A stretch of DNA of 28,311 bases from Acidimicrobiales bacterium (GCA_041688925.1 JBDNHG010000203.1:1-28311), one strand, 5' to 3'. Positions 11,717 through 25,408 are shown, numbered from the stretch's first letter. The notes: generated from the sequence alone by a model not told the origin. Translations and numbers: made by a program.

Positions 11717-13453
11717 TTAGCGCCCTCGGGATCCGCCCTCATCGGCCGCACCTGCCTGCAGGGCGTCGAGCAACCCCTTGTGCGCCCGGCGCACCGCCTC
11801 CACCTCGTCGGCCTGCAGGGCGAACGCAAGATCGTCCACACACCTCTCAAGGACAGCGGCGAACTCCCCGAGCCGCTCGCCATTCTCGATCAGCAGTCTC
11901 GTCGTGTGATAGAGCGCGAGTTCCGCCTCGTTGTGCGCGCCGGTAGCGTCGCGCCGACGGCGGTCCTCTTCGGCGTGCGACTCCGCCTCCATGACCATCT
12001 CCTCGATGACGTCGGGGGCGAGTGCCGACTGCCCCGTCATCGTGAGTTGCTGCTCCGCCCCCGTGAGCAGGTCCTTGGCGGCGACGTGGAGGATGCCATC
12101 GGCGTCGATCGTGAAGACCACCTCGATCTGCGGCTCGGCGCGTGCCATTCTCAGGATCCCCGCCAGCGTGAGGGTGCCCAGAGACCGGTTCTGGCTGGCC
12201 ATCGGCCGCTCTCCCTGCAGGACGTGCACCTCAACGCTGGTCTGCGCGTCCTCCGCTGTGGTGAAGATCTGCGAATGCTGCGTGGGAATGGTGGTGTTGC
12301 GCTCGATCAGCCTGGTCATGATGCCACCACGCGTCTCGATGCCCAAACTCAGTGGCGTGACATCGACGAGCAGCAGTCCCGTTCGCTCGCCCAGCAGCAC
12401 ACCGGCCTGCAGTGCTGCGCCCACGGCAACGACCCGCTCAGGGTCGATCCCCGCGTGCGGCTCCTTGCCGGTGAGTTCGCGCAGGAGGCTGCGGATCATC
12501 GGCATGCGCGTCGAGCCGCCGACGAGCACGACGTGATCCAATGCGGCGACCTGGATGCCTGCGTCGGACACGGCCCTCAGGAACAGTGCCGTGCATTCGG
12601 TGACCAGATCGGCCGTCTGCGCCTCGAACTCCGTGCGCGTGAGCCGCACGATGGCAGGGCCAGCGTCGGAGTCGCCGCCGACCGGCACGCTGACGGTTGT
12701 CTCGTCCTTGGTGGAGAGCACGACCTTCGCCGCCTCGGCGAGATCGAGCAGCCGCCTACGTAGGCCCGGATCAGAACGGAGGCCGGCGGCGTCGCTGCCG
12801 GGCACCTCGTTGAGCAGCCACGTGGCCAGGCGATCATCCCAGTCATTGCCCCCCAGGGTGACGTTGCCGCATGTCGAGCGCACCTCGAACACTCCGCCAG
12901 CGATGGACACAACGGAGACGTCGCACGTTCCGCCGCCCAGATCGAAGACCAGCACCATCTCGGCACCTTCGTTGCCAAGTCCGTACGCGAGTGCCGCCGC
13001 AGTCGGCTCGCTGAGCAGCCTCAGCACGTCGAGCCCAGCGATCTGGGCAGCATCCATGGTGGCCTGGCGCCCGGCGTCGTCAAAGTACGCTGGCACCGTG
13101 ACGACCGCCTGCGTCACGGGCTTGCCCACAGCGGCGCCGGCATCCCGCATGAGCTTCTGCAGGATTCGCGCCGAGATCTCCTCCGGGAACCACGTGCGCG
13201 AGGCAACCTCGAAAGTGAAGTCCGTGCCCATGTGACGCTTGACGGCGGGCACGACTCGTTCTGGATGCGTGACCGCTAGTTGGCACGCCAGGACGCCCAC
13301 GCAGACCTCCCCGTCGGGCGTGATGCCGACCATCGAGGGCGTGAACGACGATCCCTCAGAGTTGGGCAGCACGACCGGGTGGCCGTCCTTGAGGATCGCG
13401 ACCATCGAGTTGGTCGTTCCGAGGTCGATACCCACTGCAGTGTGTCTAGGCAT
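11717..13453 (-). CDS. dnaK: Hsp70/DnaK paralogue, last gene of the gas vesicle operon
   Basis: GIDLGTTNS, VKRHMG, VPAYFDD, EPTAAA, DLGGGTCDVS, LVGGSTRMP, DVTPLSLGIET, RNTTIPT, PQIEV; start overlaps the upstream gvpL stop by 8 nt. Confidence 0.93.
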   Translation of the reverse strand: MPRHTAVGIDLGTTNSMVAILKDGHPVVLPNSEGSSFTPSMVGITPDGEVCVGVLACQLAVTHPERVVPAVKRHMGTDFTFEVASRTWFPEEISARILQKLMRDAGAAVGKPVTQAVVTVPAYFDDAGRQATMDAAQIAGLDVLRLLSEPTAAALAYGLGNEGAEMVLVFDLGGGTCDVSVVSIAGGVFEVRSTCGNVTLGGNDWDDRLATWLLNEVPGSDAAGLRSDPGLRRRLLDLAEAAKVVLSTKDETTVSVPVGGDSDAGPAIVRLTRTEFEAQTADLVTECTALFLRAVSDAGIQVAALDHVVLVGGSTRMPMIRSLLRELTGKEPHAGIDPERVVAVGAALQAGVLLGERTGLLLVDVTPLSLGIETRGGIMTRLIERNTTIPTQHSQIFTTAEDAQTSVEVHVLQGERPMASQNRSLGTLTLAGILRMARAEPQIEVVFTIDADGILHVAAKDLLTGAEQQLTMTGQSALAPDVIEEMVMEAESHAEEDRRRRDATGAHNEAELALYHTTRLLIENGERLGEFAAVLERCVDDLAFALQADEVEAVRRAHKGLLDALQAGAADEGGSRGR

Positions 13454-14309
13454 CCGTGCCTGCTCCCTGTTCGGTCGCTTGGTCGTCGGTCACCGTGATG
13501 AGCAGGGGCATGTCGAATGCGCCGGCGAACGCGTAGGGGGCCCATGGTCCGGTGAACCGGACGGACAGCCCGGGAGACGCCTCCACCTCAGCCAGGTACT
13601 CACCGATCGAGCGCATCTTGTCAGGATGCGCGAGCACGGCAACGTCGAGCAGCAAGTGTTCGCTAGGCTGCGCCGCGCCCGGGCTGCCTTCACGCGCTGG
13701 ACGCTTAGGATTCACGACGATCCCCTCAGACCGAAGGGCGAGCTCGTCAAACACCGTGCTCGCCGTCAGGGCTTCAGCCGCCCGTGCCCGTTCCCGGTCC
13801 TGACGCTGGCTCAGCCGGGCCTGGAAGTAGGCGCGGCCTCGTGCCGCCGGTGCAGCGTCGGCGTCTGCAGACGGCACGGCGTGCGCCCGACCGGCGAATA
13901 CCTGCACCCCAAGCTCTACTCGGTCGCGCAGCGCATCGAGTCGCGACACGATCTCGTCGTGGCCCGCGTCCAACCAGGCCACGAGCACCTCGGCTGCCGT
14001 GCGATCTCCCGTCGCGGCAACGATCGAGTTGAATCGGATCGGCAGAATCGTGCCGGCATCCGCGTGAGCCGACCTGATCACCTCGTGCTGGGCCAGGACC
14101 CAGGTATGCACCTGCGCCACATCACCCTCGCAAGGATGCGGCGCGCAGTTGTGCGCCAGGACACCGATATCACCATGGGTCACCACGGTCACAGACGCAG
14201 CGTCGAACCCCGGAGCAGAGACGGAGAGGGGATGGCCGTCGAGCGCGACGCTCGGGACTACGCCGTAGAGATACAGCGCGGTGAGCGCCCCGCCACCCAC
14301 GTCCGCCAT
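13446..14309 (-). CDS. gvpL: GvpL/GvpF family gas vesicle protein
   Basis: LYLYGVV...HEVIRSA...TILPIRFNSIV...ELGVQV...FTGPWAPYAF. Confidence 0.88.
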   Translation of the reverse strand: MADVGGGALTALYLYGVVPSVALDGHPLSVSAPGFDAASVTVVTHGDIGVLAHNCAPHPCEGDVAQVHTWVLAQHEVIRSAHADAGTILPIRFNSIVAATGDRTAAEVLVAWLDAGHDEIVSRLDALRDRVELGVQVFAGRAHAVPSADADAAPAARGRAYFQARLSQRQDRERARAAEALTASTVFDELALRSEGIVVNPKRPAREGSPGAAQPSEHLLLDVAVLAHPDKMRSIGEYLAEVEASPGLSVRFTGPWAPYAFAGAFDMPLLITVTDDQATEQGAGTDA

Positions 14310-14324
14310 ACCAACCTCCGACTC

Positions 14325-15278
14325 CTAGGAATCCCCGTGAAAGGGCTGCACTGCTTGGTGTTCCTGACTGCGCTGCCCGACGATGACGAGGGTTCCATTC
14401 GACTGCACACTCACCGACACCTCAGCATACACGACCACCGGAAGCTCGATGTATCGCGAATAACCCCAGGCACCGGTGAGTAGCAAGCCTCGACCGCTGT
14501 CCTCAACGAGCGCTGTCACTGGTGCCTCGCTCAATCGGGTGGGCACGCTCATGATGGCGATGACCGTGTTGCCGTCACATTGCACGTCGCAGGGCTCGCG
14601 CATGGACAGCCAGAGCCCCGCCACCGTGCTATCGAGCCACCAGCTCATCGAATGCACGGCACCTGTCAACAGCTCGAACCGGCTTCTCTCGTAGCGGACG
14701 GCCGAGGCACCCAGCGCCTGGTCGACCGGGGCGAAATGATCGGCCACCATGCCGGGTAGCGCCCCCGCATGGTTCTCGTCGAGGTCGAGCAGCGCAGCCA
14801 GAGTCGCTGACGTCGCCGGACCGCCCGATGCCAGCATATCGAGGACTTGGGCGGTCGAGCCGGAGACCGTCTCGAGCACCCTTGTCAGGGCGACGGCCAT
14901 GCGCATCGGATCTGCCGGTCGTTGCAGGGCGATCCCTGGCGCCTTTGCCGTGAGCCTGGACTCCCATGCATCAAGGTCGCCGGTGAGCAGCCAGACGCGT
15001 CGCAGGGTGGACGTTGAGCGCGTCAGGTACGTCACCACGAGCACGGGCTTCGCCACCACCAGGAACTTGCGTTGCGTCGTCTCGACTCGGCGAACGCTGC
15101 CGAGCGGGATGCGCACGCTACCGCGCGTGCTCGCCGCCATGAACTCTAAATGGTGATCGTCCAGGCGCCACCGGCCCATCGCCCACGGCTTGCGCGAACC
15201 GGTGCTACACACGCCCGAGGCTACGAGCGGTCCGGTCCCTCCGTCAGCCCAGGCCGACCGAATAGCCATCTTGGCCAT
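14325..15278 (-). CDS. Hypothetical gvp-operon protein: PH/GRAM-like domain, helical/HTH-like middle, alpha-crystallin-like C-terminus
   Basis: W..GRWRLDDHHLEF...IPLGSVRRVE (PH-like); VLDMLASGGPATSATLAALLDL (wHTH-like); PCDVQCDGNTVIAIMSVP...YSRYIELP...SNGTLVI (Hsp20-like). The start (15278 or 15269) overlaps gvpK. Confidence 0.65.
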   Translation of the reverse strand: MAKMAIRSAWADGGTGPLVASGVCSTGSRKPWAMGRWRLDDHHLEFMAASTRGSVRIPLGSVRRVETTQRKFLVVAKPVLVVTYLTRSTSTLRRVWLLTGDLDAWESRLTAKAPGIALQRPADPMRMAVALTRVLETVSGSTAQVLDMLASGGPATSATLAALLDLDENHAGALPGMVADHFAPVDQALGASAVRYERSRFELLTGAVHSMSWWLDSTVAGLWLSMREPCDVQCDGNTVIAIMSVPTRLSEAPVTALVEDSGRGLLLTGAWGYSRYIELPVVVYAEVSVSVQSNGTLVIVGQRSQEHQAVQPFHGDS

Positions 15279-15573
15279 CGGCCACCCCTTTCGCGTTGAT
15301 CAGGCTGGTCACGAGATCATTCACCAGATCGTCGAGCTGGTCGCGAATCTCCTGCGTGGCGTCGGTGACGTCCAGCTCCTCCTTGAGCTCGGCGATCGCC
15401 TCCTCAATGTCTGCCATCGCATTTCCGATCCGCTCGACCTCCTCGTCAGTCAGGCTTCCCCGCTCCACGCGCTGCAACGCTGTGTGGGCGAGTACCTCCT
15501 GCACGACCTCGACCAGCGCGAACACCAGCCCGAGCAGTCCCTTCCGCAGGTCGTCCCGCTCAACGTTGATCAC
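15244..15573 (-). CDS. gvpK: Gas vesicle protein GvpK
   Basis: INVERDDLRKGLLGLVFALVEVVQEVL...ALQRVERGSLTDEEVERIG; GTG start overlaps the upstream stop (GTGA). Confidence 0.9.
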   Translation of the reverse strand: MINVERDDLRKGLLGLVFALVEVVQEVLAHTALQRVERGSLTDEEVERIGNAMADIEEAIAELKEELDVTDATQEIRDQLDDLVNDLVTSLINAKGVADGQDGYSVGLG

Positions 15574-16496
15574 GAGCTCAAGCTGTCCTCGTGGGACATG
15601 GCCTGCCGGATAGCGGTCGCCCAATGCTCGACGTCTTTGCTCACAAAGGCCAGCTCTTGGTGATCGTCGCGACGCACCAAGCACAGCACGTCGCAGTCGC
15701 CGAGCGGACCGCTGATAAGCCTTCGCTCGACGGTGACGCGCTCCAGCTCGGTCACCTGGACATCGACCACGCAGCGTCGCTCGAAGTCCGACCAGAATGA
15801 GAAGGAGCCATTGGAGATCGCGCCCCAGCCAGGTCGCCAGCCCCCCTCGCCACCACTGTCATGCCACAGCTGGCTCTCCGCGGTCACGTCCGGGAAGGCG
15901 ATACGCAGCTCCGCTGAGTCGAGCTGCGCGACCCGCACGTCCTGTCGACGCAGGAGGTCGGCGAGGACGGCCTGGAACATCTCCGGCTCACCCGTGCGCA
16001 CCAGCACAAGGGCCCCACTGGCGTCCGCAAGGCACACCACTTCACTGGTGACCCCGGCCTCGACGATGCTGAACGTGCCGATGGCTGCGACATCGCGCAG
16101 CGCCAAACTCACCAGGACCTCGTTCGGGCTGCGGCGCACCAGGAGGAGACGCTGGTCCGTGAGATAGGCACGACCCGGCCGCCACGTGCGCATGATGCCC
16201 TCATTGCTGCGGACCATGGCGAACTGCTCGATCACGATGTTCTCGCCGACGGCCAGTCCCAGCTGCGCCGGTCCCCGCTCGAGGGCAGCATCGGCACGCG
16301 TCGACTTGTCCCAGTCACCAAACATGCCGTAGGTGTTCATGGTCTCGATGGACGCCAGTGCAGCGTGCAGGCTGAGACCGACGAGCGGGATCCCAGCCAC
16401 GCTGATGATGAGATCGAGCTTGACGAATACACCGCGGTCCAGCACGCGTTCCAGAAGGTCGCTCATGCCTGCCTTCGTGTCGACTACAGGTTCCAC
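15570..16496 (-). CDS. gvpM: GvpA-family (GvpM/S-like) domain fused to two PH/GRAM-like domains
   Basis: N-terminus LLERVLDRGVFVKLDLIISVAGIPLVGLSLHAALASIETMNTYGMFGDWD, then two repeats each containing WRPG-[aromatic]...L/I-T/S...L. Confidence 0.7.
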   Translation of the reverse strand: MEPVVDTKAGMSDLLERVLDRGVFVKLDLIISVAGIPLVGLSLHAALASIETMNTYGMFGDWDKSTRADAALERGPAQLGLAVGENIVIEQFAMVRSNEGIMRTWRPGRAYLTDQRLLLVRRSPNEVLVSLALRDVAAIGTFSIVEAGVTSEVVCLADASGALVLVRTGEPEMFQAVLADLLRRQDVRVAQLDSAELRIAFPDVTAESQLWHDSGGEGGWRPGWGAISNGSFSFWSDFERRCVVDVQVTELERVTVERRLISGPLGDCDVLCLVRRDDHQELAFVSKDVEHWATAIRQAMSHEDSLSS

Positions 16497-16539
16497 AGTC
16501 GTGTCCGTCTGCTGGCTGCTACTGGATTGGAGCTAGGTG

Positions 16540-16917
16540 TCATACGGCGGGCGGCGCGTACGTATCGTCGCCAGGTTTAGTATGGGCGAGCGCGCTCTGC
16601 CAGCCGCAAGCCGGGCAGCCCTCCTCGAGCAACTCGGAGCGGCCAGCGAACCGCTCGTCGCACGCCGGACAGGCGACCTTCGCGATCATGGCGTCCTGCC
16701 ACGCCGGCACGGTCAAGTCCGTTCCCGCGGGGAACTCAAGTCCGTATCGTGCGGCGGTCTCGAACGACGCCAGAGCGGCGCGCACCTTGATGCCAAGCAG
16801 CTCGACGCCCGCGAGCGAGATCAGAATATCGGCGTTGATCACCAGCCCCTTGTCGAGGATCGCGTCGATCACGTCGACGAGCGAGCCGCTCGTGTCGTTG
16901 ACTGGCTGAAGCTGCAT
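16540..16917 (-). CDS. gvpJ: Gas vesicle protein GvpJ with C-terminal CxxC...CxxC zinc ribbon
   Basis: SLVDVIDAILDKGLVINADILISLAGVELLGIKVRAALASFETAARYGLEFP; CPAC...CPACGW; purine-rich RBS (GAAGGGGAAG) before ATG 16917. Confidence 0.9.
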   Translation of the reverse strand: MQLQPVNDTSGSLVDVIDAILDKGLVINADILISLAGVELLGIKVRAALASFETAARYGLEFPAGTDLTVPAWQDAMIAKVACPACDERFAGRSELLEEGCPACGWQSALAHTKPGDDTYAPPAV

Positions 16918-16991
16918 CGTCTTCCCCTTCAACTGGTGCTGTGTGTCCATGCCGTAGTCACGCTAATCGCGCTGCACGGCTGGTCGGCTGG

Positions 16992-17279
16992 TCATTCGGG
17001 TACATCTTCGAATCCGATCTGCTGTCCCATGGTCCGCGAGAAGAGTCGCTCCCAAGACAGCAGGCTTCCCTCGCTGTCGAGGATCACCTCGTACACCCCC
17101 ACGATGTTCTGGGTGTCGGGCACGCGCCGGAGCTCGGTGACCTCGACCTGCCCCTCCCAGCCTTCCTCGGCACGCTCCAAGGACACGACACTGAGGGCCT
17201 CGAAGCCGGTCACGAGCCGGATGTCCTCCTTGATGCCCTTCGCGATCTGCACAATGTTGCGTCTGATTACCATCGTCAT
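16992..17279 (-). CDS. gvpO: Gas vesicle protein GvpO (GvpR)
   Basis: VTG...SVVSLERAEEGWEGQVEVTELRRVPDTQNIVGVYEVILDSEGSLLSWER. Confidence 0.9.
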   Translation of the reverse strand: MTMVIRRNIVQIAKGIKEDIRLVTGFEALSVVSLERAEEGWEGQVEVTELRRVPDTQNIVGVYEVILDSEGSLLSWERLFSRTMGQQIGFEDVPE

Positions 17280-17338
17280 TTCCTCTCATATTGGGTTGGC
17301 CTTCGCATTCCCCGGACCGGGCTGGCATGCGCCTTCGT

Positions 17339-17650
17339 CTACGCCCGCCTCCGGCGGCGACCCGCGGGCTGGCTGGCCACGCTGCCGGAGCGTGGCTCCT
17401 CCTGACCCGCCGTCCGGCGCTCCTCGATGCCGTCGAGCCGACTCAACAGGACTGCCTCGGCGGCCTCGTATCGCTCGAGCGTGAGCTCTCCAGCGTCCAG
17501 TCGTCTCTGGAGGTCAGCCAATGCGGCCCGAATCTGCCCCGGATCGTTGAACTCGCGGTCGGCTTGCTCCACGACCTTGTTGAACACGTAGACCAGGCCT
17601 TTCGCAGGCAGCGTCAACGGCCCGAGGAGGATTCCCGTGATGAGGCTCAT
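17339..17650 (-). CDS. gvpG: Gas vesicle protein GvpG
   Basis: LLGPLTLPAKGLVYVFNKVVEQADREFNDPGQIRAALADLQRRLDAGELTLERYE; ATGA overlap with gvpF. Confidence 0.92.
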   Translation of the reverse strand: MSLITGILLGPLTLPAKGLVYVFNKVVEQADREFNDPGQIRAALADLQRRLDAGELTLERYEAAEAVLLSRLDGIEERRTAGQEEPRSGSVASQPAGRRRRRA

Positions 17651-18453
17651 CTTCTCACCCGGCGCCGGCCGCGCTCGCGCCCACGCCGCGGGAGCGCCGA
17701 CTCCAGTTGCGGCACGAAGCCGTACGGCGCCGCTGGTGCACCGACTGTCATCACGTAGCGGCCGTCGATGTTACTGTCGTGGGCCTTGACCGCTGCGGTA
17801 AAGGCGTCGATTCCGTCGCGATGCACCAGGAACGAGGCGTCGAGCACCATCGTCTCTTCGCCATGCTCGTTCAGGTGGACACCGTCCTGCGCAGCACACT
17901 CTTTGAGTGCATTGACGATGTCGTCGCCCTCGGCCAAGCGTTTCGCCGTCAGTGATCGCTCAACTCGCTTGCCGACATCGAGCCGCATGTTCTGCGATGC
18001 CTGAGAGGTCGCCAGTCGACGCCGGGCCTCCCGCAGCCACGGGTCAGCGGCCACGATCTCGGCGATGATGGACTTGATGTTGAACCAGCGCACGACGAGG
18101 CCGATCTCGACCATGCCGTCGACCCGCTCGATCTGGGCGCGCAGCGGCTCGTAGTAGGTCTCGAGCAGCTCGTCCGCGATCGCATCTCGATTTCGGACGC
18201 TGCCGAACCGGGCAGGAAGGACCGCGAACCGCTCCATCAACGCGGTGACCACGGCCTCGTGGCCGAGCACATTTCGCCGGGAGACCTCGTAACGCTCCTT
18301 CTGAGCGTCGCTAACGATCACCGTCAGGTCGCGGTAGGCGATCCCGTAGACTGGTCCGTCGCCGTCAACGGACGTCACCCCGGCCAGCGGGCCGGAGTGG
18401 TCGCCGCGAACGACGCCGTAGAAGTAGACCGAACTGCCGACAGCCTCGGACAT
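17647..18453 (-). CDS. gvpF: Gas vesicle protein GvpF
   Basis: VYFYGVV...HEAVVTALMERFAVLPARFG...EIGLVVRW...LDASFLV...APYGFV; conserved F-G gene pair. Confidence 0.92.
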   Translation of the reverse strand: MSEAVGSSVYFYGVVRGDHSGPLAGVTSVDGDGPVYGIAYRDLTVIVSDAQKERYEVSRRNVLGHEAVVTALMERFAVLPARFGSVRNRDAIADELLETYYEPLRAQIERVDGMVEIGLVVRWFNIKSIIAEIVAADPWLREARRRLATSQASQNMRLDVGKRVERSLTAKRLAEGDDIVNALKECAAQDGVHLNEHGEETMVLDASFLVHRDGIDAFTAAVKAHDSNIDGRYVMTVGAPAAPYGFVPQLESALPRRGRERGRRRVRR

Positions 18454-18454
18454 A

Positions 18455-19489
18455 TCAATCCCTTCCGATACTACGCTCGATGGACGCGAAGAGAACCGCT
18501 GCGTGCGGATCGAAGGCGCGGTCTCCTCGGTGCTGGCACACGGTCACGAGGGTCGCCCGTGCCTTCGTCAGATCCTCGAAATCGCGGACGGCATCCGGAT
18601 CGGCAGTTCGGACATCAGGGTGCCGCTCGAGCGCTAGCCCCCGGTACTGGGCCTGCACCGCCGACTCGTCGAAGGCATGCGGGAGGCCGAGGATGACGCG
18701 GGCCCGCTCGATCTCATCCGGATGGATCCGGTGCGCGTACACCGTGGCGAAGCTGTACGGCGGCAGTGGACCCACTCGCCGGAAATTGTACCGACCCTCG
18801 AGCTCGGCATCGAGGCGATACAACGCCTGGTCGATCCCGGCGACGCCGACGGGATCGACGAGAAGCGCTATGTTGCACACGAGCTCGTCGGAGACGAGTT
18901 CGTTGAGATGCACGTCGCTGGCCAACGGTCGCAGGTGCTCGAGGACCACGCTCTCCAGATGGCTACGCCGCTCGTGGAGCATCGCCTCGACCAGCCGGCC
19001 AACACCGATCACGGCCTCGGGACGCTGCTCGGCCGGAACTGCGTTGGCTGCAGACTTGGCAGCCAAGACCTCCGGATCGAGGGCGATCTGCGCAAGGTTC
19101 TCGCTGAGGTCCCAGGTCGTGGCGATAGCGATCTCCACCGTGCCCGCATGCGCTGCGCAAGCCGTGCGAAGGAGCTGCCCAGACGTGCGTAACAGCGACG
19201 TCACGGCATCGTCGTCGTCCATGACGGTGCCGAGCCGCACCGGCAGCAGGCTGCCGCCACTCATGAGCTGCTCGATGACCTTCTGGTTCAGCAGGAGGCG
19301 CCCGGTCAACTCGTTCTGCGGAACGTCCTCGATGGCCAGACCTCGGTAGGCGCTGACGAAGGCCACCAGGCCCTCAGCAAGGATCGCCCGCACGGGTTCG
19401 AACTGCTCAGGCAGATCGAACCCGTCCAGCGGAGCGGTCCGGTCCTCCGCTGCTCCGATCGCGAACAGATAGGTGCGGCAATCACTCAT
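18455..19489 (-). CDS. GvpF/GvpL family protein with C-terminal J-domain (HPD motif)
   Basis: GvpF/L core (YLFAIG...LLPVRLG...NIALLV...GPLPPYSF), then ARVILGL...AVQAQYRGLALERHPDV...RDFEDLTKARATL. Confidence 0.88.
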   Translation of the reverse strand: MSDCRTYLFAIGAAEDRTAPLDGFDLPEQFEPVRAILAEGLVAFVSAYRGLAIEDVPQNELTGRLLLNQKVIEQLMSGGSLLPVRLGTVMDDDDAVTSLLRTSGQLLRTACAAHAGTVEIAIATTWDLSENLAQIALDPEVLAAKSAANAVPAEQRPEAVIGVGRLVEAMLHERRSHLESVVLEHLRPLASDVHLNELVSDELVCNIALLVDPVGVAGIDQALYRLDAELEGRYNFRRVGPLPPYSFATVYAHRIHPDEIERARVILGLPHAFDESAVQAQYRGLALERHPDVRTADPDAVRDFEDLTKARATLVTVCQHRGDRAFDPHAAVLFASIERSIGRD

Positions 19490-21635
19490 TCCTTACTCCC
19501 GGCCGATGTCGCAGCGTCTCCAGTGCCGCATCGAAGTGCGCTGCCCTCACGGAGAGCTTGGCGCTCTCACTCTCGCCATTGACGATGAATTCGCGTACTG
19601 CCGCCATCGTCGCATCGCGGCACAACTCAGCGAGCTCTGCGCCCTGGTACCCATCCGTCTGCTCTGCGAGAGCGTCAAGGTCGACGTCGTCGGCCAGCAG
19701 GTCGGTCTGGGTGTGAATACCGAGGATAGCCCGACGGGCCGTGCTGTCCGGAGCACCGATTTCGATCACCATGTCGAATCGACCTGGCCGCAGGATTGCT
19801 GCATCGATCATGTCGATGCGGTTCGTCGCACCAAGGACGGTCACGCCGCGAAGGTCCTCGATCCCGTCCAGCTCCGTCAGGACCTGGCCGAGCACTCGCT
19901 CCGAGACGTTGTCACCCGACCCGCGTCCACGCTTCTGCGCGATGACGTCGATCTCGTCGAAGAAGAGGATGCATGGTGCTGCCTGCCTTGCCTTCTTGAA
20001 GATCTCGCGGACCGCCTTCTCAGACTCCCCGACCCACTTCGAGATCAGCTCGGGACCCTTGACCGAGAGGAAGTTGGCATTGACCTCGTGCGCAACTGCC
20101 TTGGCCAGCAGCGTCTTGCCGCAGCCGGGAGGCCCGACGAGGAGGATGCCCTTCGGCGGGCTCACCGACGCCTGTTCGAAGATGTCTGCGTACGTGCGAG
20201 GCCACTCGACCGCTTCGCGAAGCACTTGCTTGACGTTCTCTAGGCCGCCGACGTCCGCCCACGTCGTGTCGGCGATCTCGATGAAGAACTCGCGGATCAT
20301 CGACGGCTGCACCTCCAGCATCGCCGTGGCGAAGTCACCGCCATCCACCGTGAGGGCGAGCAGTTCCTCATCGGGGATCTCGGAGTTCGTGAAGTCGATG
20401 TTCGGGATGATTCTGCGCAGCGCGCCCATGGCGGCTTCCCGGCCCAGCGCCTGCACGTCCGCGCCCACGTAGCCGTGGGTCAACGTCGCGATGCGCTCCA
20501 GGTCGACGTCATCGCCGAGCGGCATGCCCCGTGTGTGGATTTCGAGGATTTCCCGACGGCCGTTGCGGTCCGGGATCGGGATCACGATCTCCCGGTCGAA
20601 CCGCCCCGGTCGCCTGAGTGCCGGGTCGATGTTGTCTGGAAGGTTGGTCGCGCCGATGACCACGACCTGCCCGCGGGCCGCGACACCGTCCATCAGGCCC
20701 AGCAGCTGAGCGACGACGCGCTTCTCCACTTCGCCCTGCACCTCGGCGCGCTTGGGCGCGATGGCATCGATCTCGTCGATAAAGATGATGCTCGGCGCGT
20801 TGGATTCCGCATCGGCAAAGATGCGACGCAGATGCGCCTCGCTCTCGCCATACAGCCGGTGAATGATCTCGGGGCCATTGACGTGGATGAAGTGCGCCGA
20901 CGTCTCGTGCGCGATGGCACGGGCGATCAACGTCTTGCCGCACCCCGGCGGCCCGTGAAGGAGCACGCCCTTGGGTGCGTCGATGCCGAGCCGATCGAAG
21001 ACCTCGGGGAAGCGAAGCGGCAGCTCGATCATCTCCCGGATGCGATGGAGCGTGCGTCCGAGACCGCCGATGTCCTCGTAGGAGATGGCCAGGTCGTTGC
21101 GCGGCTCGCGGGCCGTCGAACCGGACCCGCCGACGATCTTGACGCGCGTGCCATCCCGCAGGAACACGACCCCCTTGGGGGTCGTGCCCTCCACTTGGAA
21201 GTCCTGCGGACGAGAGCCGAAGAGGTTCACCCGTACACGGTCCCCCGTCTGGACGACCATGCCGTCGAGCAGCCGCCCGATGTAGGACCCGTCACGAGCC
21301 TGCGACAGGCGTGGTGCTCCGATCATGCTGAGTGTCACGGACCGGGCCACCTCGCACTGCGCCTTGCGCACCTCCACGCGCTCGTCCAGGCCGGCACCCG
21401 CGTTCTCGCGCGCGATACCGTCGATCTGCACGATCTCGTTCCCGCGGTCGTCGGGATACACCGGCACGACCTTCAGCACAGCGTCACGAGTGCCCGTGAC
21501 AGCGACAACGTCGCCGATCTTCACATCCACTCTCGCCATGTCGCTTGGGTCGAGGCGGGCGATTCCGCGTCCGGCATCCTTGGGCAGGCCCTCGGCCACC
21601 CGAAGAGTCACGCCGGGACGCTCGTCAGGATTCAC
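19482..21635 (-). CDS. Cdc48/p97/VAT family AAA+ ATPase
   Basis: N-domain (DAGRGIARLD), two AAA modules (GPPGCGKT x2, FIDEID/FFDEID, RPGRFD x2); GTG start with GAGG RBS overlapping the hsp20 stop. Confidence 0.95.
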   Translation of the reverse strand: MNPDERPGVTLRVAEGLPKDAGRGIARLDPSDMARVDVKIGDVVAVTGTRDAVLKVVPVYPDDRGNEIVQIDGIARENAGAGLDERVEVRKAQCEVARSVTLSMIGAPRLSQARDGSYIGRLLDGMVVQTGDRVRVNLFGSRPQDFQVEGTTPKGVVFLRDGTRVKIVGGSGSTAREPRNDLAISYEDIGGLGRTLHRIREMIELPLRFPEVFDRLGIDAPKGVLLHGPPGCGKTLIARAIAHETSAHFIHVNGPEIIHRLYGESEAHLRRIFADAESNAPSIIFIDEIDAIAPKRAEVQGEVEKRVVAQLLGLMDGVAARGQVVVIGATNLPDNIDPALRRPGRFDREIVIPIPDRNGRREILEIHTRGMPLGDDVDLERIATLTHGYVGADVQALGREAAMGALRRIIPNIDFTNSEIPDEELLALTVDGGDFATAMLEVQPSMIREFFIEIADTTWADVGGLENVKQVLREAVEWPRTYADIFEQASVSPPKGILLVGPPGCGKTLLAKAVAHEVNANFLSVKGPELISKWVGESEKAVREIFKKARQAAPCILFFDEIDVIAQKRGRGSGDNVSERVLGQVLTELDGIEDLRGVTVLGATNRIDMIDAAILRPGRFDMVIEIGAPDSTARRAILGIHTQTDLLADDVDLDALAEQTDGYQGAELAELCRDATMAAVREFIVNGESESAKLSVRAAHFDAALETLRHRPGVRNE

Positions 21636-22254
21636 CCTGGTCCTCGCCCTCAGCGGCCTTGTCCGCAGCGTCAGGGTCGGGCGATCCCGCCGGCGCTGCC
21701 TTCGCGTATCGGATCTGCAGGTAACCGTTGTCGTAACTCTGCTGCGCTGATCCTGGATCGACGGAAGCGGGCAGCAACGTTTCGCACTCATACCGATGTC
21801 GATTGCCCTTCGCTTCGACCGCCATTACGTCGCCGTTCAGCTCGACGTGGATGTCACGCTCGGCAACTCCTGGCAGCTCAAAGACGATGAGGATCTCGTC
21901 ACCCTCGTCGAAGACGTCCACAAGGGGCTCTCTGGTCTCGCTGACGACAACGCCCTCATTGGTCATCTTGACGTTGCCGAACTCGCTCACCACCGGCTCT
22001 GGATCCCCTAGGCCGGTTCGGATGGAGAGTCCGTATACACCACGGCCACCGCCGGGGATCGAGAACTGCTTGTTTCGGGACATCCCCGGAGGCCGACCGC
22101 CAGAGGAGGAGGATGAGCTCGAGGGCATGGAGTCTGCCGCGTCCTGGAGCGACTGCGCCTGCTCGCTCAGCGTCTGCAGCAACGTGACTAGGTCGGAGAC
22201 CACGTTTGAAGCGCCCTTGATGCCGGGGGGACGCTTGTCGGGGTTAGTCGTCAT
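21625..22254 (-). CDS. gvpH: Hsp20/alpha-crystallin family protein (GvpH-like)
   Basis: GVYGLSIRTGLG...EFGNVK...TREPLVDVFDEGDEILIVFELPGV...YDNGYLQIR. Confidence 0.88.
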   Translation of the reverse strand: MTTNPDKRPPGIKGASNVVSDLVTLLQTLSEQAQSLQDAADSMPSSSSSSSGGRPPGMSRNKQFSIPGGGRGVYGLSIRTGLGDPEPVVSEFGNVKMTNEGVVVSETREPLVDVFDEGDEILIVFELPGVAERDIHVELNGDVMAVEAKGNRHRYECETLLPASVDPGSAQQSYDNGYLQIRYAKAAPAGSPDPDAADKAAEGEDQGES

Positions 22255-22269
22255 GGTGATTCCAATCCA

Positions 22270-22595
22270 CTCTGTGGTTACTGCACGATTTGTCGATCGC
22301 CACGTAAAGGTCGAACCACACGCCCTTGTCCGGACCCCGCAGCGCTGTGGTGCCCCAACCCCACGCGCCCGCAGTACCGGCCAGCGGCTCGATCTCATCG
22401 TAGCAGGCGTCGTACGCCTCCACGATCGCCAGATCGTACTCGGCAGTGAACGTCCGCCGCCGAGGCTTGTGCGCGAAAGTGGGGCCATCATCGGCCATCG
22501 CCCCATCATGGGATCGCTGCATCATCCGGATTGGTATCATCATTGCTGTGCACCTAGTCCAGTCTCGGCCTTTAAGGATCGCGGGCAACCTGACG
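22270..22595 (-). mobile_element. Internally deleted IS3-family remnant inside the gvp operon
   Basis: OrfA-like KPRRRTFTAEYDLAIVEAYD is joined directly to OrfB-like AWGWGTTALRGPDKGVWFDLYVAID; a possible left end (c/t)GTCAGGTTGCCCGCG lies near 22595. Boundaries approximate. Confidence 0.7.
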
Positions 22596-22609: not shown

Positions 22610-22954
22610 TCAGTAACGAAGCTCAATCACGTCCCAGGCCCGCGGCGAGTCGCCTCGCTTGTTCGGCTGCTTCTCTCCTATGGAGTTCTCTCCTATGGAG
22701 TCGAGCTCCTTATTAAGGCGTGCCATCTGCTGCGCCAGAGTCTCGAGCCGCGAGAGCGCAAGCTGCTCCTTACCACGTAAGATCGCGAGCTGGGCTCGAA
22801 GCCTGGCTTCCTCTGCGCTTAACGTACTGAGCTGGAAATAGACCTCATGCTGGCTCCGTCCAGACCGTCTGCCCGCTCCCTTCGCCCGCGCATCGCCCAT
22901 CGAGGGAACACGTGAGGTACTGCTTCGACCGCGGCCAGCGCCTTGGATAGGCAT
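22610..22954 (-). CDS. gvpV: GvpV-like coiled-coil gas vesicle protein
   Basis: Directly after gvpN; YFQLSTLSAEEARL followed by a coiled coil and a terminal IELRY, the pattern I recall for GvpV. Confidence 0.65.
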   Translation of the reverse strand: MPIQGAGRGRSSTSRVPSMGDARAKGAGRRSGRSQHEVYFQLSTLSAEEARLRAQLAILRGKEQLALSRLETLAQQMARLNKELDSIGENSIGEKQPNKRGDSPRAWDVIELRY

Positions 22955-22956
22955 GG

Positions 22957-23913
22957 CTAAATCGGGGCTAGGTCGACTGAAGTATCCGCCTGCTCGACAG
23001 GGCGCAGTGCAACCTTTGCGCGAACGATGCTCACCAGCTTTTGCCGAACCTCGGACTCGTGGCGATTGGACGCACCACCGCCCGTCGGACGAAGCATGCT
23101 CAGCAGCACGTCGCAGCACGTCGACTCGAACCACGGATCATCAGCAACCGAGTGCTTCTCGTTGGCGAGCACCGCTCCGATCATCACGGCGCTTCGCACC
23201 GTCGGGACGTGACTATCACCGAGCAACTCTCGGACCTCGCGGACGATTGAGACGATGACTGCCGAGTCGGCCGCGTTAGCACCCGATCGCGCCTTGGTGA
23301 TCGCTACCTCGGTCTCGAAGTCGAACGTGCTTACGTCCAGGGTCATCATGCGCTGCACGAGAGCGTCCTGCGCTTGGTGGACGCCGGCGTACTCGGACGG
23401 ATTGCTCGTGAAGATCGCAGTGAAGTCGGGGTGTACCTTGAGGTAGCTCGAGCCGCGTCGACGAGCCGGCAGTACCAGCACGCCCTCCTCAAGTACAGAG
23501 AGAAGAATGTTGTTCGCCTCAGGACGCGATCGCGTGAACTCGTCATAGACGAGGGTCAGGCCCTCGCTGCATGCCAGGGTCAGGCGGTTGTCGACCCACG
23601 ACTCGCGGACCGAGTCCTCCACCTTGCGCACCGAATGGATAAATTTGTCCACGACGCGTTTACGGTCATACCCGGTGGCGCCGCCCACCAGGTCGGAGGT
23701 GCCGAACTCGTCGTCACCCGTCATCAACATGACGGGGCGCCCGATCTGCTGGGCGATGTGCATAGCTATTGTGGTCTTGCCCACGCCTGTGGGCCCTGCC
23801 AGATGAAGCGGGAAACCCGCTCGGATGTAACTGAGCCCACGCTCGGTTAGGGATTGCACGTACGGGGTGGCGACGAAATCCGGCCGTGGACTCAGCTGCA
23901 CGATCGATGGCAT
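22957..23913 (-). CDS. gvpN: Gas vesicle AAA+ ATPase GvpN (MoxR clade)
   Basis: GFPLHLAGPTGVGKT, LVYDEFTRSRPEANNILLSVLEEG, HPDFTAIFTSNPSEYAGVHQAQDAL; AAGGA RBS. Confidence 0.95.
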   Translation of the reverse strand: MPSIVQLSPRPDFVATPYVQSLTERGLSYIRAGFPLHLAGPTGVGKTTIAMHIAQQIGRPVMLMTGDDEFGTSDLVGGATGYDRKRVVDKFIHSVRKVEDSVRESWVDNRLTLACSEGLTLVYDEFTRSRPEANNILLSVLEEGVLVLPARRRGSSYLKVHPDFTAIFTSNPSEYAGVHQAQDALVQRMMTLDVSTFDFETEVAITKARSGANAADSAVIVSIVREVRELLGDSHVPTVRSAVMIGAVLANEKHSVADDPWFESTCCDVLLSMLRPTGGGASNRHESEVRQKLVSIVRAKVALRPVEQADTSVDLAPI

Positions 23914-24000
23914 TAGACTTTTCCTTATTTCCGGGTTCGAAGAGTGGGGATATCCCACGCCCGCCCAGAGGATTGATTGGTTCCTTGCTGTGCCGTGGCC

Positions 24001-24663
24001 CTATACAGCGAAGTATTTGCCGGTCTCATCATCGCGAGTTACCTCGTGATCAGTCTCATACATTTCCTTGACCGGGCGCTGGAGGACGATGCGTGGAGTG
24101 CTGAAGTACTCCTCCATCTCGACGAGCGAGATACCACTCGGGTGGTCCGCTATGAAGGAGAAGATCTCGGCCTTTGTCGGGCGACGATCCTGGGCACCTG
24201 CCGCCGGCTTTGACTTCTTCGGCTCAACAGTCGCCTCTGCCGCCGGCTTCGACTTCTTCGGCTCAACAGCCGCGTCTGCCGCCGGCTTCGACTTTTTCGG
24301 CTCAACAGCCGCGTCTGCCGCCGGCTTCGACTTTTTCGGCTCAACGGTCGTCTCTGCAGCTGGCTTCGACTTCTTCGGCTCTGGGTTCGCATTCCAGCCG
24401 CTGCGGATGTCACTGATCGTGAGCAGCGCCGTCTGCAGGAGGCTCGCCGACTGCACGCGGGTCGCGCTGAGCTCTGCAACCGCAGCATCGGTGTCCGCAC
24501 GCATCTGCGCCACGTCCTCACTCATCGCCGCGATATTTGACAACCGCTCACCCCTATCGACGCTGGCCAACTCCAGGCGGATCACCTGGCCAGCCACTCT
24601 TCGCTCAGTTCCTGCGACCAGACTCTCCACGAGCCTTTGCATGTCATGCACTTGGCTAGTCAT
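24001..24663 (-). CDS. gvpC: GvpC-like protein with Lys/Ala/Pro-rich repeats and C-terminal winged-helix-like domain
   Basis: Position between gvpA and gvpN; helical N-terminus; (VEPKKSKPAAxAx)n; C-terminus IFSFIADHPSGISLVEMEEYF...GKYF; AGGAG RBS. Confidence 0.65.
   Translation of the reverse strand: MTSQVHDMQRLVESLVAGTERRVAGQVIRLELASVDRGERLSNIAAMSEDVAQMRADTDAAVAELSATRVQSASLLQTALLTISDIRSGWNANPEPKKSKPAAETTVEPKKSKPAADAAVEPKKSKPAADAAVEPKKSKPAAEATVEPKKSKPAAGAQDRRPTKAEIFSFIADHPSGISLVEMEEYFSTPRIVLQRPVKEMYETDHEVTRDDETGKYFAV
24199..24381 (-). repeat. 39-bp (13-aa) tandem repeat, about 4.7 copies, within the gvpC-like gene
   Basis: Units start at 24199, 24238, 24277, 24316 and 24355 (TGCCGCCGGCTTCGACTT(C/T)TTCGGCTC...). 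Confidence 0.95.
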
Positions 24664-24820: not shown

Positions 24821-25039
24821 TTACGCGTCGACTTCGTCGGCGTCCTTCAGCAGGCCAACGGCCTCCGCATACTTCAGCCACGTGTCGACCGACGCGATGA
24901 CCACGCGGGCTTCGATAGCGAGCAACTCGATACCAACTAGAGAAACGCGCACCCACGCGTCAACGACGACGCCCTTGTCGAGGATCCGGTCAACAACCTC
25001 AACCAGAGTTGATGCACCATTAGTGGTCTGAACAGCCAT
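24821..25039 (-). CDS. gvpA: Major gas vesicle structural protein GvpA
   Basis: [63 protein letters not shown]; AAGGAG RBS. Confidence 0.97.
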
Positions 25040-25065
25040 AGGTAATCTCCTTATATGGTTACGAT

Positions 25066-25192
25066 GTGAGCCTCTGTGGCTCACCGTAGGTGTAAAGTAT
25101 AGCACTCGCCGAGTGAGCCAGTACGGGAAGTGTTCACTCGTATGGCTACAATTGAGGAGCCATCCGGCCTGCCCTGAGTAGTCAAGTGAGCC
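25066..25192 (-). promoter_or_regulatory. gvpA promoter region: extended -10 (TGcTATACT, 25104-25096) and four GTGAGCC boxes
   Basis: Minus strand gagTGcTATACT; GTGAGCC at 25066, 25113 and 25186, with its inverse GGCTCAC at 25078. Confidence 0.55.
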
Positions 25193-25408
25193 AAGGACGT
25201 CGGAGGTCTGTCCCCCGGGTTCCGCAGCTTGTGGTGACGGTGACATCCTAGCTGCGGCGCAGAAGTAGGGATTGACCTGGGGGGTTCGCTGCTTGCGCGT
25301 GTGTTGACGGGTTAGGGAGGGGTCGGCCACACAGGGGCACTGATACTCCGACTTGTTTGAATAGCGGTCAGCACCAGCGATTCCTGCAGAGTCTTATGGT
25401 GTCAGGAC

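What the first reader, a model, noticed from the sequence alone, without database searches (positions are those of the whole stretch)
14325..15278. Unnamed three-domain gvp protein: PH-like + winged-helix-like + alpha-crystallin-like
Seen: the N-terminus shares the W..G.(W/L).L pattern with the PH-like repeats of the gvpM fusion; the middle resembles a wHTH; the C-terminus mirrors the operon's Hsp20 (PCDVQCDGNTVIAIMSVP vs PLVDVFDEGDEILIVFELP; NGTLVI vs NGYLQI). It matches no standard Gvp name I know. Inference: a scaffold linking PH-tagged shell subunits to the sHsp oligomer, or a regulator coupling assembly to DNA binding.
Basis: inference. Interest (0 to 1): 0.7.

Follow-up and report, generated by a model that had tools for sequence, protein, structure and literature searches.

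The report
Three-domain heat-shock-like gas-vesicle protein
This is a real, conserved gene in a gas-vesicle operon whose protein joins a PH-like domain, a winged-helix domain and a small-heat-shock (alpha-crystallin) domain; it is most likely a specialised assembly chaperone or adaptor that docks onto the neighbouring PH-tagged GvpM shell protein, and the papers searched do not describe this design.

Summary
ORF 14325-15278 (-) encodes 317 aa. It is translationally coupled to gvpK and gvpL, and the gene order is conserved in relatives down to 51% identity.

AlphaFold2 models and fold searches show three domains:
- **PH-like domain (aa 14-118):** VIA Z up to 11.7, with 179 chains at Z>=8.
- **ArsR/SmtB-type winged helix (aa 122-226):** Z about 7.
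- **Alpha-crystallin domain (aa 227-304):** Z 11.0, and family profile against PDB Hsp20.1 gives E 9.5e-16.

A profile of the PH-like domain hits, in the whole MAG, only the two PH domains fused to the adjacent GvpM (E 2.8e-10). The ACD profile hits only the operon's own Hsp20 (E 8.6e-14).

All seven distinct loci examined place the gene in a gvp cluster with a GvpM-PH fusion. One genome has GvpM-PH without it.

The winged helix is acidic, and its recognition helix has no Lys or Arg, so DNA binding is unlikely.

The best reading is a GvpH-like holdase/adaptor, which is inferred and not shown. The searched literature does not describe this architecture. This scan had noted the same pairing in another genome (e1-955125). 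I class it as a new variant of a known kind, interest about 0.6.

The parts
14325..15278 (-). Complete ORF, 317 aa, for the PH-like + winged-helix + alpha-crystallin protein. The first 35 nt overlap the gvpK 3' end, and the stop is 15 nt upstream of the gvpL start.
   Evidence: Sixteen close homologues at 46-89% identity. Gene order conserved in L002 and L004.
15285..15289 (-). Shine-Dalgarno-like AGGGG, 6 nt upstream of the ATG.
   Evidence: Read directly from the sequence.
14925..15239 (-). PH-like domain (aa 14-118): seven strands plus a C-terminal helix. It is strongly basic (net +9, pI 11.4).
   Evidence: AF2 pLDDT 82.4. Foldseek and VIA hits are all PH, PTB, GRAM or GLUE domains. The domain HMM hits the GvpM-fused PH domains. 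Charge.
14601..14915 (-). ArsR/SmtB-type winged-helix domain (aa 122-226), laid out as a1-a2-a3-a4-b1-b2-a5. It is acidic (net -5). The b-hairpin RYERSRF..TG.V.S.SWWLD is the most conserved stretch of the protein (G190 and W213 invariant).
   Evidence: Model. VIA Z 6.9-7.6 to Csa3, SmtB, PagR, CzrA and BigR. Pfam HTH_20 E 0.014. Conservation. Charge.
14367..14600 (-). Alpha-crystallin (Hsp20/CS-type) domain (aa 227-304). It keeps R275, L279-P280 and N294-G295-x-L297, and no conserved C-terminal I-x-I motif follows it.
   Evidence: Foldseek 4rzk E 4.5e-5. VIA Z 11.0. Profile against PDB E 9.5e-16. Invariant columns.
15570..16496 (-). Proposed partner: a GvpM-type shell protein fused to two PH-like domains (about 15921-16238 and 15594-15857) that are homologous to the target's N-terminal domain.
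   Evidence: Pfam Gas_vesicle and NCBIfam GvpM on aa 1-67. N-terminal HMM full-sequence E 8.4e-12; domains 4.7e-4 and 6.2e-6. Reciprocal hits of the GvpM-PH profile on target homologues in G253 and G304.
21700..21927 (-). ACD of the operon's Hsp20/GvpH-like protein (ORF 21625-22509). It is the only other match in the MAG to the target family's ACD profile.
15244..15684 (-). gvpK, immediately upstream and overlapping the target.
   Evidence: Pfam GvpK E 5.8e-16.
13446..14309 (-). gvpL/F, immediately downstream.
   Evidence: Pfam GvpL_GvpF E 1.8e-38.
11717..13453 (-). Operon-encoded Hsp70. In the distant low-GC clusters the target homologue lies directly after this gene.
   Evidence: Pfam HSP70 E 1.4e-175. 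Gene order in G253 and G304.

Best explanation
The gene encodes a gas-vesicle-specific, GvpH-like small-heat-shock-type assembly chaperone/adaptor. Its alpha-crystallin domain is the constant element of the family. I infer that it holds exposed hydrophobic beta-segments of GvpA-family proteins (GvpM, GvpJ, GvpA) in an assembly-competent state, as haloarchaeal GvpH does for GvpM. The N-terminal PH-like domain replaces the disordered N-terminal arm of ordinary sHsps. It is homologous to the two PH-like domains fused to the neighbouring GvpM. I infer that it is the targeting module, either pairing with the GvpM-borne PH domains or binding the same platform as they do, so that the chaperone is brought to the GvpM-containing nucleation complex. 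The acidic ArsR-like winged helix most likely serves as a dimerisation or protein-contact module rather than a DNA reader. Shown here: the gene is real, the three folds, the two paralogous relationships inside the operon, and the conserved gvp context. Inferred: chaperone activity, the client, PH-PH docking and dimerisation.
For: Folds. ACD homology by sequence profile: (E 9.5e-16); distant members pass or approach the Pfam HSP20 and GvpH cut-offs. The PH domain HMM hits only the adjacent GvpM-PH in the whole MAG and in every related locus, with reciprocal hits. The ACD HMM hits only the operon Hsp20 in the MAG. Context: between gvpK and gvpL in the window, L002, L003, L004 and L001/L005, and after gvpM-PH-hsp70 in G253 and G304 at 21% identity. 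In the 401-genome phylum sample the family occurs in 3 genomes, all of which carry GvpM-PH. Translational coupling. Literature: GvpH is non-essential but stabilises vesicles, binds GvpM's C-terminal 25 aa and prevents GvpM aggregation (PMC7688916). Hsp20 genes are common in gvp clusters and are presumed to be chaperones (PMC2963123). The top structural neighbour of the PH domain is pICln, and PTB domains rank just below it. From general knowledge, pICln is an assembly chaperone and PTB domains bind partner peptides by strand addition.
Against: No interaction, chaperone assay or co-fold was done. The target does not reach the Pfam HSP20 or GvpH threshold. It has no conserved I-x-I tail, so canonical sHsp oligomerisation is doubtful. 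Charge complementarity between the basic target PH and an acidic GvpM PH2 holds only in the high-GC clade, not in G253 or G304. G052 has gvpJ-gvpM-PH-gvpK-gvpL without this gene, so GvpM-PH does not strictly need it. The gvp context of the non-actinobacterial homologues (Chloroflexota, Bipolaricaulia, Thermoplasmatota) could not be read here.
Confidence: 0.55

Rival explanations
1. It is a transcriptional or post-transcriptional regulator. The ArsR-like winged helix would bind the gvp promoter, and the PH and ACD domains would sense the state of assembly, for example free GvpM or unfolded Gvp proteins.
For: ArsR/SmtB/MarR-type fold with Z 6.9-7.6 over the whole domain. Weak HTH_20 hit in the target (E 0.014) and HTH_24 hit in an archaeal relative (20.5 bits against a 21.9 cut-off). 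One relative is named an Lrp-family regulator by JGI.
Against: The domain has net charge -5 and pI 4.8. The recognition-helix segment has pI 4.1 and no Lys or Arg in the target clade, and 22 of 24 aligned family members have a net-negative winged helix. PH-ACD variants lack the winged helix. The gene sits mid-operon, overlapping gvpK and 15 nt from gvpL, which is unusual for a regulator. Z around 7 is in the range the tool calls a common arrangement.
Confidence: 0.12
2. It is a membrane or anionic-surface tether. The strongly basic PH-like domain would bind acidic phospholipids or another polyanion, localising nascent vesicles or the chaperone to the cell membrane.
For: The PH-like domain is basic in every family member examined: +5 to +15 in all but one of 24 (pI about 9.4-11.8), with a conserved RRKF-type basic hairpin. 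Many PH and GRAM domains bind anionic lipids (PMC4704004 and PMC7957428, titles and abstracts listed).
Against: The homologous PH domains on GvpM in the same operon are neutral or acidic, so lipid binding is not a property of this PH family as a whole. Most Gvp partners in the operon are themselves acidic (GvpK, GvpL, GvpJ, GvpM-PH and GvpF-J have pI 4.5-5.0), which explains a basic domain equally well. Gas vesicles contain no lipid (general knowledge).
Confidence: 0.13
3. It is a structural or surface component of the mature vesicle, a GvpC-like external stabiliser or vesicle-vesicle linker, rather than a transient chaperone.
For: Haloarchaeal strains lacking GvpH make weaker vesicles (PMC7688916). 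A multi-domain protein with a possible dimerising winged helix could cross-link PH-tagged GvpM on different vesicles.
Against: It has no repeat structure or amphipathic helices of the GvpC kind. GvpM-type proteins are thought to be minor nucleation components (PMC7688916). There is no direct evidence either way.
Confidence: 0.1

Closest known systems
GvpH of Halobacterium salinarum and other gvp-cluster Hsp20 proteins (Pfam PF05455 / PF00011)
   Same: An ACD-containing accessory protein encoded inside the gvp operon. GvpH binds GvpM and keeps it from aggregating (PMC7688916). The ACDs of archaeal relatives of this family score just below the PF05455 cut-off (21.7 against 22 bits).
   Different: The target does not match PF05455 or PF00011. 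It carries a PH-like and a winged-helix domain ahead of the ACD, and the operon also has a separate GvpH-like Hsp20 gene (21625-22509).
Canonical small heat-shock proteins (Sulfolobus Hsp20.1 4RZK, M. jannaschii Hsp16.5)
   Same: The ACD beta-sandwich with the R...LP and NG.L signature positions.
   Different: There is no disordered hydrophobic N-terminal arm and no conserved C-terminal I-x-I anchor, so the usual 12-36-mer assembly is not expected. The N-terminal region is two folded domains.
GvpM-PH-PH fusion of the same operon (window 15570-16496)
   Same: The target's N-terminal domain belongs to the same PH-like sequence family as both domains of the fusion.
   Different: The fusion's PH domains are attached to a GvpA-type shell core and are neutral or acidic in this clade. 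The target's PH is attached to wHTH-ACD and is basic.
PH-superfamily peptide binders and assembly chaperones (pICln 4V98/4F7U, PTB domains, Vps36 GLUE, archaeal CheF 7OVP, bacterial PHb PF08000)
   Same: The fold: Z 11.7 to pICln, 11.1 to the CCM2 PTB and myotubularin GRAM-PH domains, 9.7 to CheF. Vps36 combines a PH-type GLUE domain with winged-helix domains (general knowledge; 2CAY appears).
   Different: No sequence-level membership. Pfam CheF-arch E 0.044 and Vps36 E 0.04 are both below their cut-offs. Ligands are unknown.
ArsR/SmtB-family winged-helix repressors (SmtB 1R1T, CzrA 1R1U, PagR 2ZKZ)
   Same: The a1-a2-a3-a4-b1-b2-a5 topology over about 90 aligned residues.
   Different: The domain is acidic, has no basic recognition helix, and shows no metal-site residues. 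HTH_20 scores 15.7 bits against a cut-off of 27.

Membership tests
Alpha-crystallin domain / Hsp20 superfamily (PF00011) | ACD beta-sandwich fold | tested here: met
   Foldseek 4rzk_A E 4.5e-5, TMt 0.72. VIA Z 11.0, rmsd 2.5, 83 aa aligned.
Alpha-crystallin domain / Hsp20 superfamily (PF00011) | Significant sequence-profile similarity to solved sHsps | tested here: met
   Family profile A2 against PDB: 4rzk E 9.5e-16 and about 20 further sHsps at E<=0.0016, all on profile positions 213-308.
Alpha-crystallin domain / Hsp20 superfamily (PF00011) | Pfam gathering threshold reached by the protein itself | tested here: not met
   No PF00011 hit for the target even at E<=1. Distant homologues P0032 (30.5 bits), P0053 (21.6) and P0062 (21.0) pass the 20.8-bit cut-off.
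Alpha-crystallin domain / Hsp20 superfamily (PF00011) | C-terminal I-x-I/V anchoring motif and flexible N-terminal arm used for oligomer assembly | tested here: not met
   No conserved I-x-I after beta9 in alignment A1, and the tail is variable. The N-terminal region is two folded domains.
GvpH (PF05455) | Match to the GvpH profile above the 22-bit cut-off | tested here: not met
   A whole-genome search with PF05455 gives no hit on the target. The operon Hsp20 scores only 13.7 bits. Archaeal relatives score 17.5-21.7 bits.
GvpH (PF05455) | ACD protein encoded within a gvp accessory operon | tested here: met
GvpH (PF05455) | Binds GvpM and prevents its aggregation | not testable with these tools
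   Known for Halobacterium GvpH (PMC7688916). It needs pull-down or solubility assays.
PH-like fold superfamily | Seven-stranded beta-sandwich capped by a C-terminal helix | tested here: met
   Strands at 18-25, 33-39, 43-48, 55-58, 62-72, 75-85 and 92-99, then helix 102-112, with pLDDT >=89 across the core. 179 chains at Z>=8, and all of the top 50 are PH, PTB, GRAM, GLUE or RanBD domains.
PH-like fold superfamily | Membership of a curated sequence family (GRAM, bPH, CheF-arch, Vps36 GLUE) | tested here: not met
   Only sub-threshold hits: CheF-arch 14.0 bits against 25, and Vps36_ESCRT-II 14.5 bits against 24.1 in the G253 homologue.
gvp-cluster PH-like module (as on GvpM-PH fusions; no database family) | Profile-level homology to the PH domains fused to GvpM, in both directions | tested here: met
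   Target-family HMM against GvpM-PH: E 8.4e-12 (1,313 ORFs) and 2.8e-10 (43,471 ORFs). GvpM-PH profile against target homologues: E 1.3e-7 and 4.5e-6 per genome.
ArsR/SmtB winged-helix DNA-binding regulators (PF12840 / PF01022) | wHTH fold with a1-a5 topology | tested here: inconclusive
   Z 6.9-7.6 over 81-94 residues to Csa3, SmtB, PagR, CzrA and BigR. The hits are consistent, but the Z range is one the tool calls common.
ArsR/SmtB winged-helix DNA-binding regulators (PF12840 / PF01022) | Pfam threshold | tested here: not met
   HTH_20 scores 15.7 bits against a cut-off of 27.
ArsR/SmtB winged-helix DNA-binding regulators (PF12840 / PF01022) | Basic or polar recognition helix and wing suited to DNA contact | tested here: not met
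   Segment 157-190 has net -5 and pI 4.1 with no K or R in the target clade. The whole domain is net-negative in 22 of 24 members.

The most novel reading that the evidence does not exclude
The PH-like domain is a shared address tag of a chaperone-rich type of gas-vesicle cluster. It sits twice on the GvpM nucleator, once on this wHTH-ACD holdase, and in one lineage as a stand-alone protein next to Get3/ArsA-like ATPases. Together these PH modules would form a docking system that brings the sHsp, Hsp70/J-domain, Cdc48 and Get3-type machines to the nascent vesicle seed. That would be a dedicated client-delivery pathway for an extremely hydrophobic shell protein, analogous to tail-anchored protein targeting.
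Probability: 0.3. Interest if true: 0.75.

Novelty: new variant of a known kind. Interest (0 to 1): 0.6.

Why it matters
How the very hydrophobic GvpA-family proteins are kept soluble and delivered to the growing vesicle is still an open question, and the roles of GvpH-type Hsp20 proteins and of GvpM are only sketched. This protein physically links an sHsp domain to a domain family that otherwise occurs on GvpM in the same operon. That gives a concrete, testable hypothesis for how a chaperone is addressed to the nucleation complex. It also defines three unannotated sequence families (gvp PH-like, gvp wHTH, short gvp ACD) found in Actinomycetota, Chloroflexota, Bipolaricaulia and Thermoplasmatota MAGs. 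Such accessory factors may matter for transplanting gas-vesicle clusters into other hosts as acoustic reporters.

Tried and rejected
- **Pairwise BLASTP.** Target against GvpM-PH and against the operon Hsp20 is not significant (E 1.7 and 2.3). Only profiles and folds show the relationships.
- **First full-length AF2 model.** It left the N-terminus at pLDDT below 50. This was solved by folding aa 1-126 with a 48-sequence alignment.
- **P0019 and P0033.** P0019 (7,571 aa, '28 stretches', E 3.5e-29) and P0033 are repeat artefacts. Every single stretch scores 11 bits or less, and neither matches the domain HMMs.
- **Charge-complementarity idea.** A basic target PH pairing with an acidic GvpM PH2 holds in the high-GC clade only. 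In G253 and G304, PH2 is +9 and +2. I rejected it as a general mechanism.
- **Gene context of distant homologues.** The single genome contigs and metagenome-contig scans returned close relatives only.
- **ESM Atlas.** It could not read the target. A stored homologue gave only HSP20-labelled clusters, which are leads.
- **Expression.** No RNA holder is listed for the stretch.
- **Class sample.** Among 400 other genomes of the same class, no full-length homologue was found in those searched.
- **Literature.** No paper in the held library combines 'gas vesicle' with PH-domain terms in a relevant way, and none describes Hsp70 or Cdc48 inside gvp clusters.
- **Unpublished genomes.** G336 and G082 were flagged as unpublished. 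They appear only among the ACD-only hits, and no claim here rests on them.

Full report
**Setting**

The window is a high-GC contig from a lake-water metagenome-assembled genome (G000: 962 contigs, 75.8% complete). A long minus-strand operon runs from about 25.3 kb to 11.7 kb. Its genes, in order, are:
- gvpA (24821-25330)
- an unassigned ORF (24001-24663)
- gvpN (22957-23958)
- an unassigned basic ORF (22610-23134)
- an Hsp20/GvpH-like gene (21625-22509)
- a Cdc48-type AAA+ ATPase (19482-21791)
- a GvpF-J-domain fusion (18455-19489)
- gvpF (17647-18453)
- gvpG (17339-17650)
- an unassigned basic ORF (16963-17328)
- gvpJ (16540-16950)
- a GvpM-type protein with a long C-terminal extension (15570-16496)
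- gvpK (15244-15684)
- the target (14325-15278)
- gvpL/F (13446-14309)
- Hsp70 (11717-13453)

Transposase remnants flank the cluster.

**Is the gene real?**

Yes. An AGGGG site lies 6 nt before the ATG. The first 35 nt overlap gvpK, and the stop is 15 nt from the gvpL ATG, which has its own GGAGG site.

Sixteen proteins at 46-89% alignment identity were found, all from metagenomes or 'Actinomycetes bacterium' MAGs and all unannotated. The conserved N-terminus (L18 and G22 nearly invariant even in the wide alignment) supports the upstream ATG over the internal MGRW start. The first PH strand (aa 18-25) would otherwise be lost.

**Domain 1, aa 14-118: PH-like**

The full-length model was poor in this region. 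Folding aa 1-126 with 48 homologues gave pLDDT 82.4, at or above 89 across the core.
- Foldseek returned only PH, PTB or GLUE domains at probability 1.00, including GRK2, Sin1, DENND3, pICln and Vps36.
- VIA-align found 179 chains at Z>=8. The top hits were pICln (Z 11.7, rmsd 3.0, 95 aa), SNX17 FERM-F3, the CCM2 PTB, myotubularin GRAM-PH and Sin1. The archaeal adaptor CheF scored Z 9.7.
- Sub-threshold Pfam hits to CheF-arch in the target and to the Vps36 GLUE domain in the G253 homologue point the same way.

- An HMM of this domain hits both halves of the GvpM extension in the window and in every related locus.
- Against all 43,471 six-frame ORFs of the MAG it hits only the target and that protein (E 2.8e-10).
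- In the reverse direction, a profile of the GvpM extension (A4) hits the target homologues of G304 and G253 (E 1.3e-7 and 4.5e-6).

**Domain 2, aa 122-226: winged helix**

This domain is confidently modelled (pLDDT 75-94). It has five helices and a beta-hairpin in the ArsR/SmtB order a1-a2-a3-a4-b1-b2-a5. VIA gives Z 7.6 to the Csa3 wHTH, 7.3 to SmtB, 7.1 to PagR, and 6.9 to CzrA, BigR and M. smegmatis SmtB, each spanning the whole domain. That Z range is only moderate, but the hits are consistent, and HTH_20 is the best Pfam lead (E 0.014).

The domain is acidic: net -5 and pI 4.8. The a3-a4 segment has pI 4.1 and no Lys or Arg in the target clade. Twenty-two of 24 aligned relatives also have a net-negative domain.

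The best-conserved stretch of the whole protein is the hairpin RYERSRF..TG.V.S.SWWLD. G190 and W213 are invariant across the whole family. That suggests a protein contact surface or a packing surface.

**Domain 3, aa 227-304: alpha-crystallin**

- Foldseek's best hit is the Sulfolobus Hsp20.1 ACD (E 4.5e-5, TM 0.72), followed by dozens of sHsp and CS/p23 domains.
- VIA gives Z 11.0 to the same entry.
- The family profile against PDB sequences gives E 9.5e-16 to 4RZK, with about twenty further sHsps significant.
- The signature positions are invariant or nearly so: R275, L279-P280 and G295 with L297 in 'NGTL'.
- Distant members pass the Pfam HSP20 cut-off and are annotated as Hsp20 by NCBI and JGI.
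- Within the MAG the ACD profile hits only the operon's own Hsp20 (E 8.6e-14). In G253 the gvp-linked ACDs score higher (52 and 43 bits) than the unlinked one (35 bits).
- The target does not reach PF00011 or PF05455 and has no conserved I-x-I tail.

**Distribution and context**

Gene order is kept at 88%, 70%, 58% and 51% identity in L003, L004, L001/L005 and L002/L007: gvpJ, gvpM-PH, gvpK, target, gvpL, hsp70.

In two small low-GC actinobacterial genomes (G253 and G304, 21% identity) the homologue follows gvpM-PH and hsp70. That cluster also holds cdc48, gvpF-J, two Hsp20 genes and tandem ArsA/Get3-like ATPases.

In a 401-genome sample of the phylum, full-length homologues occur in G000, G253 and G304 only. 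The GvpM-PH extension occurs in those three plus G052. G052 has gvpJ-gvpM-PH-gvpK-gvpL with nothing between gvpK and gvpL. In a 401-genome sample of the same class only G000 has the gene. This patchy spread fits the flanking transposases.

More distant full-length relatives come from Dehalococcoidia and Bipolaricaulia, and WH-ACD forms come from Thermoplasmatota. Among 73 collected proteins the architectures are:
- PH-WH-ACD: 48
- WH-ACD: 16
- PH-ACD: 3
- the rest are fragments or artefacts

The ACD is therefore the constant element, and each of the other two domains can be absent.

**Mechanism**

Haloarchaeal GvpH, an Hsp20-like accessory protein, is dispensable. It strengthens vesicles, binds the C-terminal 25 aa of GvpM, keeps GvpM monomeric and non-aggregated, and contacts GvpF, GvpL and GvpI (PMC7688916). 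Hsp20 genes have long been noted in gvp clusters as presumed chaperones (PMC2963123).

The most economical reading is that this is a GvpH-class holdase whose usual unstructured N-terminal arm has been replaced by two folded modules. One of them belongs to the same family as the domains carried by GvpM. This suggests targeting to the GvpM-containing seed, either by PH-PH pairing or by a shared PH ligand. The PH-fold neighbours pICln and PTB domains suggest a mode of binding: from general knowledge, they bind partners by strand addition.

The basic charge of the PH domain is conserved across the family (+6 to +10 in the loci examined) and could match the acidic Gvp partners. A specific basic/acidic PH pairing is not conserved.

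A DNA-binding regulator is disfavoured by the acidic winged helix. A lipid tether remains possible. None of these functional steps was tested.

**Novelty**

The searched literature has no description of PH-like domains in gas-vesicle proteins or of this architecture. Databases call the family 'hypothetical' or 'Hsp20'. An earlier follow-up in this scan (e1-955125) reported on another genome that GvpM carries two PH/GRAM-like domains and a neighbouring sHsp carries a third. My results agree independently, and they add the winged-helix domain, the architectural variants and the charge analysis. Its claim of 'hundreds of species' was not tested here.

I class the finding as a new variant of a known kind: a gvp-associated sHsp.

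Noticed in passing
L029 12330-12761 (G253:C7, about 16330-16760): A stand-alone 143-aa protein consists of the same PH-like module (HMM E 9.5e-11). It lies directly upstream of, and overlaps, the second of two tandem two-domain ArsA/Get3-like ATPases inside a gvp cluster. This is a third kind of carrier for the gvp PH module.
   Followed up: partly
L039 11738-14152 (G052:C1, about 1142700-1145150): A complete 4-Mb, 70%-GC actinobacterial genome has gvpJ, gvpM-PH, gvpK and gvpL with no PH-wHTH-ACD gene between gvpK and gvpL, and none elsewhere at E<=1e-5. It is a natural comparator for the gene's function.
   Followed up: partly
window 16963-17328 (-): An unassigned 121-aa ORF, very basic (net +12, pI 11.4), lies between gvpG and gvpJ. 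This is the position of gvpH and gvpI in the haloarchaeal gvpFGHIJKLM order. It could be a GvpI-like basic partner of the sHsp proteins. BLASTP found no homologue in L004, L029, L030 or L031 among ORFs of 80 aa or more.
   Followed up: no
window 21625-22509 (-): The 294-aa Hsp20 ORF probably starts later, near the Met at about aa 86 (MTTNPDK). The L004 orthologue is 216 aa and aligns only from aa 82, and the first 80 residues are Arg/Trp-rich. Likewise, the cdc48 ORF as listed (start 21791) overlaps hsp20 by 167 nt, so its true start is probably downstream.
   Followed up: no
L029 15522-17213 (G253:C7): Two proteins with DnaJ-type CXXCXGXG zinc-finger repeats, one also carrying winged-helix hits (wHTH-PRTase_assc, HTH_IclR), lie between a gvpG-like gene and gvpJ in the low-GC gvp cluster. 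This adds more chaperone-type parts to this cluster type.
   Followed up: no
P0053, P0061-P0070 (Thermoplasmatota MAG proteins, about 250-290 aa): Archaeal relatives have the same wHTH-ACD pair, but it is preceded by about 100 aa that match neither the PH HMM nor any Pfam family. Their ACDs score just under the GvpH cut-off (up to 21.7 against 22 bits).
   Followed up: partly
P0024, P0031, P0039: These are short PH-ACD proteins (196-236 aa) that lack the winged-helix domain entirely. They show that the PH and ACD domains can work as a pair.
   Followed up: partly
L030 695-1804 and L031 2942-4051: In the low-GC clade the GvpM-PH-PH fusion is longer (369 aa). It ends in a segment that matches the Cys-rich tail of the window's GvpJ (BLASTP 54-56% identity over 26-27 aa), so shell-protein tails have been shuffled between GvpJ and GvpM.
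   Followed up: no
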